Part shown: piece after piece, positions 4,503 through 4,870 of the stretch
How the letters are laid out: the number at the start of each line of letters is the position of its first letter
Numbering within the stretch: position 1 is the stretch's first letter
Origin: a virus
Taxonomy: Duplodnaviria > Heunggongvirae > Uroviricota > Caudoviricetes
DNA: 61,399 nucleotides
IMG/VR virus record: IMGVR_UViG_3300035696_001272
Reading direction: 5' to 3' (one strand)
Notes under the pieces: model-generated
Database searches by the model: none
What the model saw: the letters and a program-made list of their open reading frames with translations, nothing else
Told to the model about the DNA's origin: nothing
Translations under genes and position numbers: made by a program

Positions 4503-4870
4503 GAGAGAAGTAGTTTGGACAATCGCTGCGTAAGCAGAGGAAAGTCGGAACAGCTAGGATAGCCTGCTGGCTAACGGCCAGACATCGTGAGGTGATGGAT
4601 AGTGCAACAGAAAATAAACCGCCACGAATCCGCCAGATCCGAAAGGAAGCAACGGTAAGTGGTAAGGGTGAAATGGCGGTGTAAGAGACCACCGCACGTT
4701 TGGCAACAAACATGGCAAGGTAAACCCCAGGTGCTGCAAGCCTAAATGAGAGAGACTAATCCGGTCGTTATTATCTCAGGTTGGTGCTGGAGCAACGAAG
4801 TAATTCGTTGCCAAGATTAATGATTGTCTCGATTTATAGACAGAATTCCGCTCATAGAACTACTTCTCTC
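4503..4870 (+). ncRNA. rnpB: RNase P RNA, bacterial type A
   Basis: P1 GAGAGAAGTAGTT/AACTACTTCTCTC; GAGGAAAGTC, AGTGCAACAGAAA, GGTAAACCCC, ACAGAA landmarks; P4 intact with compensatory changes. Confidence 0.95.

What the first reader, a model, noticed from the sequence alone, without database searches (positions are those of the whole stretch)
4503..4870. Phage-encoded RNase P RNA with a covaried P4 helix
Seen: complete type A RNase P RNA. P4 reads AAGTCGGAA/TTCCGCTC instead of the usual AAGTCCGGG/CCCGGCTT, i.e. compensatory changes that keep the helix. No rnpA protein gene is in the window. Known: RNase P matures tRNA 5' ends and is rare in viruses. Inferred: it uses the host protein subunit to process the many irregular phage tRNAs.
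Basis: partly seen in the sequence, partly recalled or inferred. Interest (0 to 1): 0.75.

Follow-up and report, generated by a model that had tools for sequence, protein, structure and literature searches.

The report
Giant-phage RNase P with altered core
A giant bacteriophage carries its own complete gene for RNase P RNA, the ribozyme that trims new tRNAs; the gene is kept across a whole family of such phages, and several of them have changed base pairs of the catalytic helix that did not vary in any of 130 bacterial copies checked.

Summary
Real: a full-length class A RNase P RNA at 4503-4872 (RF00010, 256.5 bits). The window lies on a 476,653-bp contig collinear with a complete 481-kb tailed phage that has terminase, portal, capsid, sheath, 57 tRNAs and tmRNA, but no 16S, rnpA or HARP. 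About 47 distinct relatives keep the RNA at the same locus, with strong covariation (98% paired; 62 of 85 pairs swapped). The P4 claim is only partly right. The three compensated pairs are ordinary, and G71-C356 is common in bacteria. The fourth change is an uncompensated A66.C360 mismatch. The tRNAs look like good substrates, not irregular ones (CCA 21/21, A at -2 in 18/21). The new result: 4 of 19 relatives found without a P4 motif carry independent compensated swaps at normally invariant P4 pairs (67-359, 68-358, 70-357), against 0 of 130 bacterial RNAs; bulged U69 is always kept. Best reading: an active accessory ribozyme that borrows host RnpA to mature phage tRNA arrays. Activity and expression are untested. 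This scan has noted phage RNase P RNAs on other DNA several times; I found no paper describing one.

The parts
4503..4872 (+). Class A RNase P RNA gene (rnpB): P1-P18 present, short 4-bp P3, extended P12, no P19
   Evidence: RF00010 256.5 bits; helix-by-helix pairing across 30 relatives
4542..4550 (+). P4 5' strand (E. coli A66-A74 equivalents); bulged catalytic U69 at 4545 intact; G71, A73, A74 differ from the E. coli type
4846..4853 (+). P4 3' strand (353-360); C at 4853 (U360C) leaves an A.C mismatch with A66 at 4542
4557..4762 (+). P6 pseudoknot (4557-4560 with the P17 loop 4759-4762); all four pairs show two-sided changes in the clade
4621..4663 (+). P12 with a ~30-nt extension capped by a GAAA hairpin; length varies from a tetraloop to ~190 nt in relatives
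4738..4738 (+). A248 equivalent (J5/15), contacts N(-1) of the pre-tRNA
   Evidence: role from PMC11221534
4779..4781 (+). L15 GGU motif that pairs with the 3' RCCA of pre-tRNA
   Evidence: role from PMC4919922
4814..4822 (+). J18/2 with U at the G332 position (4818): clade signature, 40/40 phage RNAs, 0 of about 250 bacterial RNAs scored
   Evidence: U332 is known from Thermotoga and G332U is neutral in E. coli (PMC11221534)
4882..5529 (+). RNA ligase gene (PF09414) starting 10 nt after the RNA; usual downstream neighbour in the clade
4166..4490 (+). Separate ~320-nt structured RNA with spaced AGC units, belonging to the upstream DIP1984/DUF6847-like gene; not part of RNase P and absent at this spot in many relatives
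1313..1539 (+). tRNA Gln-Gln-Met array with 4-nt spacers: candidate substrate
11527..11786 (+). tRNA Ser-Ser-Trp array with 0- and 3-nt spacers; one cut at 11618/11619 would give both a mature CCA end and a mature 5' end
   Evidence: processing step inferred

Best explanation
An active, phage-owned RNase P RNA that has been a core gene of a family of 450-510-kb tailed phages since their common ancestor. Steps: (1) it is transcribed inside a same-strand run of genes and released by host nucleases at its A/U-rich flanks (inferred); (2) it folds into the class A structure (shown by conservation and covariation); (3) it binds the host RnpA protein, since no phage rnpA or HARP was found (absence shown in relatives, binding inferred); (4) it cuts the 5' leaders of the 50-60 phage pre-tRNAs and probably pre-tmRNA, using L15 GGU with the encoded CCA and A248 with N(-1), adding capacity or replacing host RNA lost during takeover (inferred). 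Because the host enzyme backs it up, selection on base identity in P4 is weaker than in cells while selection on helix shape stays strong. This lets invariant pairs swap through mismatch intermediates; the window's A66.C360 would be such a state, probably mildly harmful.
For: 256.5 bits with every helix present. 85 pairs, 98.2% paired versus 78.1% shuffled, 62 with two-sided changes, including the P6 pseudoknot. All 40 clade loci share neighbours with the window. Every relative reached through EF-G or the RNA ligase whose syntenic region could be read had the RNA. 46 of 47 phage RNAs fall in one starred group, 99/98. U69, A248, GGU and CR-II/III are kept. tRNA leaders are biased to A(-2): 18/21 window, 44/55 G001, binomial p 2e-5 and 5e-8 at 40% A. 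The genome also carries EF-G, EF-Ts, PheRS, Thg1, Pth2, and in G001 a CCA-adding enzyme and tmRNA. P4 core swaps fall in separate subclades.
Against: No activity or expression data. A66.C360 sits next to the metal ligands; a single wobble change in E. coli P4 (C70U) slows cleavage about 250-fold (PMC11221534), so the window copy may be impaired. T4 matures its dimeric pre-tRNAs with host RNase P alone (PMC11143913), so a phage copy is not strictly needed. The A(-2) bias is also seen in other phages with different J18/2 sequences, so it does not show tuning to this RNA.
Confidence: 0.68

Rival explanations
1. Active enzyme, but the P4 core swaps are positively selected: they change the most conserved stretches of rnpB so that the phage RNA or gene escapes something that recognises that sequence (host CRISPR spacers or a defence nuclease, or a phage weapon aimed at the host RNA).
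For: 4 of 19 relatives carry swaps at pairs that did not vary in 130 cellular RNAs (Fisher p about 2e-4, rough because rows are related). They are different pairs in different subclades and almost all are fully compensated.
Against: 15 of 19 relatives keep the canonical core. No second copy or antisense match of the conserved strands in G001. No host spacers could be searched. Relaxed selection explains the same pattern more simply.
Confidence: 0.12
2. The family RNA is active but the window's own copy is in early decay: U360C is a loss-of-function change fixed in one phage population.
For: C360 is seen in only 2 of about 340 RNAs examined (window and the partial L230); the nearest relatives L196, L202 and L325 have U360.
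Against: All other helices of the window copy are intact, with only one more mismatch in P14 and the clade-typical one in P13. Its end branch (0.14) is ordinary. L230 shows the same base independently. From my own memory, eukaryotic RNase MRP RNAs often have C here (not checked).
Confidence: 0.1
3. The RNA acts mainly as a decoy or scaffold: it binds host RnpA or pre-tRNAs and diverts or protects them, with catalysis secondary.
For: Changes cluster in the catalytic core (P4 swaps; A351G in about 30 clade RNAs), while P2, P3 and J18/2, near the protein site, are 100% paired or invariant.
Against: U69, A248, GGU and the whole S-domain are kept. The phage needs tRNA maturation for its own 50-60 tRNAs, so blocking RNase P would hurt it.
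Confidence: 0.07
4. The contig is cellular and this is an ordinary bacterial rnpB.
For: EF-G, EF-Ts, PheRS and GroES lie in the window; IMG/VR classes two relatives as 'provirus'; capsid genes were not seen on the window's own contig.
Against: 59 of 80 plus-strand ORFs match G001 almost all in the same order. G001 has GpA terminase, portal, head protease, major head protein, sheath and baseplate and no 16S or rnpA. The window's EF-G group sits on contigs that top out at 447-511 kb, one named an uncultured Caudovirales phage, and is at most about 57% identical to the next group of hits.
Confidence: 0.02

Closest known systems
Bacterial class A RNase P RNA (E. coli M1 RNA / rnpB; Rfam RF00010)
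   Same: Full-length match; P1-P18, P4 with bulged U69, P6 pseudoknot, CR-I to CR-V, A248, L15 GGU, GNRA-capped P9, P14 and P18
   Different: Encoded by a phage with no rnpA found; A66.C360 mismatch in the window copy; relatives with swapped 67-359, 68-358 and 70-357 pairs; U at 332; often G at 351; very short P3; no P19; packed between genes without its own clear promoter or terminator
Thermotoga maritima RNase P RNA (PMC4919922, PMC11221534)
   Same: Class A, U at the G332 position of J18/2, reported to contact A(-2)
   Different: Cellular, canonical P4; common ancestry with the phage RNAs was not tested
Translation toolkits of huge phages (Al-Shayeb et al. 2020, PMC7162821)
   Same: tRNAs, tmRNA, EF-G, EF-Ts, synthetases and CCA-adding enzyme in very large phage genomes
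   Different: That paper does not mention RNase P; nor does a 2026 jumbo-phage review (PMC13282480)
Processing of T4 dimeric pre-tRNAs by host RNase P (PMC11143913)
   Same: Phage tRNA arrays with spacers under 5 nt that need RNase P
   Different: T4 relies on the host enzyme; this family carries its own catalytic RNA and encodes CCA on nearly all tRNAs

Membership tests
Bacterial class A RNase P RNA (RF00010) | Score above the Rfam gathering threshold over the whole model | tested here: met
   256.5 versus 100 bits, positions 1-367
Bacterial class A RNase P RNA (RF00010) | Class A helices P6, P13, P14, P16, P17, P18 present and paired | tested here: met
   97-100% paired in 30 clade RNAs with two-sided changes in each
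Bacterial class A RNase P RNA (RF00010) | P4 helix with bulged U69 and metal-binding A67, G68 | tested here: met
   4543-4545; seven of eight P4 pairs are Watson-Crick
Bacterial class A RNase P RNA (RF00010) | Near-invariant A66-U360 pair at the end of P4 (a conserved detail, not a class criterion) | tested here: not met
   A.C mismatch; U360 in 209 of 209 motif-found and 130 of 130 model-found comparison RNAs
Bacterial class A RNase P RNA (RF00010) | Substrate contacts A248 and L15 GGU | tested here: met
   4738 and 4779-4781
Bacterial class A RNase P RNA (RF00010) | Mg2+-dependent cleavage of pre-tRNA between -1 and +1 | not testable with these tools
   needs an in vitro assay
Bacterial RNase P holoenzyme | RnpA protein encoded by the same genome | tested here: not met
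   PF00825 gives no match at E<=1 in G001 (100% complete) and eight other viral records while 10 of 14 controls ring; the window's own contig was not searchable whole
Protein-only RNase P (HARP, PF08745) | PIN_5 protein in the genome | tested here: not met
   0 of 5 viral records
Tailed dsDNA phage (Caudoviricetes), huge-phage size | Terminase, portal, capsid and tail genes; no rRNA | tested here: met
   Shown for the collinear relative G001, and carried over to the window's 476,653-bp contig by synteny

The most novel reading that the evidence does not exclude
A family of huge phages runs its own RNase P with host RnpA, and has repeatedly rewritten the 'universally conserved' base pairs of the catalytic P4 helix while staying active, either because only helix shape and the bulged U matter or to escape sequence-specific attack. 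These would be natural variants that test which P4 bases catalysis really needs.
Probability: 0.45. Interest if true: 0.8.

Novelty: new variant of a known kind. Interest (0 to 1): 0.64.

Why it matters
RNase P RNA is one of the few near-universal cellular ribozymes, and I found no paper describing it in a virus. Here it is a vertically inherited core gene of a large phage family, which adds 5' tRNA maturation to the known phage takeover of translation. The family also supplies natural, compensated swaps at P4 pairs that hold the catalytic metal ions and did not vary in the bacteria sampled. That makes an old question, why these bases are invariant (chemistry, folding or frozen history), directly testable with a handful of in vitro transcripts. 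Motif-based annotation misses such variants.

Tried and rejected
No whole genome is held for the window and its ENA contig is not searchable. Two homologue searches for a terminase or capsid on that contig did not list it among the top 120; this is no evidence either way. PF07068 (T4 Gp23) rang nowhere, controls included; the capsid is of another family. No RNA run was listed as holding the stretch, which is no evidence on expression. blastn against GenBank phages gave only short cellular-type pieces. G71-C356 as a phage signature: rejected. Co-adaptation of U332 with A(-2) leaders: not supported, since phages with G or A at 332 show the same bias and G332U is neutral in E. coli (PMC11221534). 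A pattern scan for C360 in 401 genomes gave four hits, none an RNase P RNA, with no denominator. The 109-aa ORF that overlaps P1 in some relatives has no PHROG match, no RNR motif and no homologue in the window, so it was not pursued as an RnpA substitute. Donor and host were not resolved: Bacteroidota RNAs came near the phage group only with weak support. The promoter scan was not above chance (14 versus 11.1). In one search the P5, P6 and P13 coordinates were wrong; one search corrects them. A remembered 2004 report of a putative RNase P RNA in a poxvirus could not be retrieved, so priority is not certain. No paper on mutation of A66-U360 was found.

Full report
The observation. cmscan places a full-length class A RNase P RNA at 4507-4870 (+), 256.5 bits against a gathering score of 100. 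P1 runs out to about 4503/4872. All helices P1-P18 can be drawn; P3 is only 4 bp, P12 has a ~30-nt extension and P19 is absent. The bulged U69 (4545), A248 (4738) and the L15 GGU (4779-4781) are in place. E. coli numbers are assigned from the alignment to the Rfam consensus and my own knowledge of M1 RNA; the roles of these residues are from PMC11221534 and PMC4919922.

The P4 claim. Three pairs differ from the E. coli type and are compensated (71-356, 73-354, 74-353). The fourth change, U360C at 4853, is not compensated and leaves A66.C360. It was absent from 209 other RNAs found by motif and from 130 bacterial RNAs found by the covariance model. Only the partial locus L230 shares it. Four other assemblies have the same base, though they may share raw data.

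Is it a phage? The RNA ligase next door maps the window to a 476,653-bp ENA contig. That contig could not be searched whole. IMG/VR record G001 (480,838 bp, CheckV 100%) is collinear with the window: 59 of 80 plus-strand ORFs hit it, nearly all in order, at positions 50-112 kb. G001 encodes a GpA terminase, portal, head protease, major head protein, tail sheath, baseplate wedge and a CCA-adding enzyme, plus 57 tRNAs and a tmRNA. It has no 16S rRNA, no RnpA and no HARP, with controls ringing in each search. Close EF-G relatives lie on contigs that top out at 447-511 kb, one labelled an uncultured Caudovirales phage. The host is unknown; an OmpA-domain gene in relatives suggests a Gram-negative one (inference).

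The family. Pattern scans of viral and metagenome contigs and protein-anchored look-ups gave about 47 distinct related RNAs, 67-81% identical to the window's over the core. All 40 loci tested share neighbouring genes with the window. Every relative reached through EF-G or the RNA ligase whose syntenic region could be read carried the RNA. Two had none to show: a 62-kb fragment and a distant ligase in another gene context (L329). In a tree with bacterial and other viral RNAs, 46 of 47 form one starred group (99/98) that also holds one long-branch viral RNA; L326 is unresolved. The donor is not resolved. Over 30 aligned members, 85 pairs are 98.2% paired against 78.1% after shuffling, and 62 show changes on both sides, including all four pairs of the P6 pseudoknot. 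This control ignores relatedness, but the structure was taken from Rfam, not fitted. The RNA is under selection for its fold.

What is really unusual. My motif scans demanded the canonical P4 core and so could not see variants. Relatives found without a P4 motif show them: C67-G359 (L306, 447 kb), U68-A358 (L308), A70-U357 (L317), and G67-C359 with U68.G358 (L326, 448 kb). That is 4 of 19 relatives, the window excluded, against 0 of 130 bacterial RNAs sampled from three phylum-level groups, including the 40 lowest-scoring of one. Fisher p is about 2e-4, rough because rows are related and the bacterial sample covers only three phyla. The five variants sit in separate parts of the tree, so they are probably independent. 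U69 is always kept. About 30 clade RNAs also have G at 351, which 7 of 135 cellular RNAs share, and all have U at 332, known from Thermotoga (PMC11221534). A67 and G68 bind catalytic metal through their phosphates (PMC4919922, T. maritima A50 and G51), which is compatible with base swaps being tolerated. But C70U alone slows E. coli RNase P about 250-fold, so tolerance cannot be assumed.

Substrates. The 21 window tRNAs are mostly regular. All encode CCA, 19 have U or C at -1 and 18 have A at -2; G001 and other clade loci show the same. These are determinants that bacterial RNase P favours. Several tRNAs lie in arrays with 0-5-nt spacers; the Ser-Ser pair at 11527-11708 has none, so one cut would make both mature ends (inference). 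The A(-2) bias also holds in unrelated RNase P-bearing phages, so it shows use of RNase P, not tuning to this RNA.

Expression context. The gene lies 20 nt after a separate structured RNA that follows a DIP1984-like gene and 10 nt before the RNA ligase gene. No plus-strand promoter-like site lies between 3989 and the RNA's start and no plus-strand terminator follows it, and the scan is not above chance. In some relatives an ORF overlaps the 5' strand of P1. Release from a long transcript is therefore likely (inference). No RNA data were available.

Mechanism and rivals. Most likely (0.68): an active accessory ribozyme that uses host RnpA to mature a large tRNA set, with weaker selection on P4 base identity because the host enzyme backs it up. 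Rivals: swaps selected to escape sequence-specific attack (0.12), decay of the window's copy (0.10), decoy or scaffold (0.07), cellular contig (0.02).

Novelty. The RNA is a member of class A by every structural test run, apart from the A66-U360 pair. Ten literature searches, the huge-phage survey, a jumbo-phage review and two RNase P reviews gave no report of a virus-encoded RNase P RNA; subscription papers are not covered. This scan has noted phage RNase P RNAs on other DNA several times, probably including members of this clade; those notes are unchecked leads. What this window adds is core-gene status in a 450-510-kb phage family and recurrent swaps in the invariant P4 core.

Noticed in passing
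window 3516-4490 (+): DIP1984/DUF6847-like gene followed by a ~320-nt structured RNA (terminal stem 4191-4482, z -5.35, no Rfam match) with evenly spaced AGC units; homologues in at least seven related phage loci, with compensated pairs in the terminal stem. Already followed up elsewhere in the scan.
   Followed up: partly
L249:16569-16898 (G001 56569-56898) and L008, L020, L011, L025, L323: A conserved ~109-aa ORF of unknown family directly upstream of the RNase P RNA, whose last codons overlap the 5' strand of P1 in several relatives; no homologue in the window.
   Followed up: partly
L015, L025, L028, L327, L328 (P12 region): P12 carries insertions of 130-190 nt; two unrelated types are visible, one shared by L015, L028 and L328 that looks like an inserted structured element.
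   Followed up: no
L007, L012, L013, L026, L052, L054, L055: Other large viral contigs (98-363 kb) with RNase P RNAs inside dense tRNA arrays that mostly fall outside this clade, suggesting several separate acquisitions; L007 has a 277-nt form lacking P15-P18.
   Followed up: partly
window 1468-1543: tRNA-Met(CAT) appears to have a U1:U72 mismatch before A73-CCA, as in an initiator tRNA.
   Followed up: no
window 514-590: Low-scoring second tRNA-Ala(UGC) (30.8 bits) with an irregular acceptor stem; possibly degenerate.
   Followed up: no
G001 50073-50149, 172924-173255, 170047-170403: One UAA-reading and two UAG-reading tRNA genes, and a tmRNA with tag ANDNAFAMAA, in the collinear relative.
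   Followed up: no
window 9415-11514 and 40557-61399: NAD salvage and ADP-ribose genes (NAMPT, NUDIX, two ADP-ribosylglycohydrolases, WGR-PARP), plus Thg1, Pth2, PheRS, NAD-dependent ligase and a SET-domain protein.
   Followed up: no
L323 and G001 around rnpB: SIMPL-family genes (PF04402) flank the RNA on one or both sides in many relatives, in place of the DIP1984 module; the slot next to rnpB swaps cargo while the RNA stays.
   Followed up: partly
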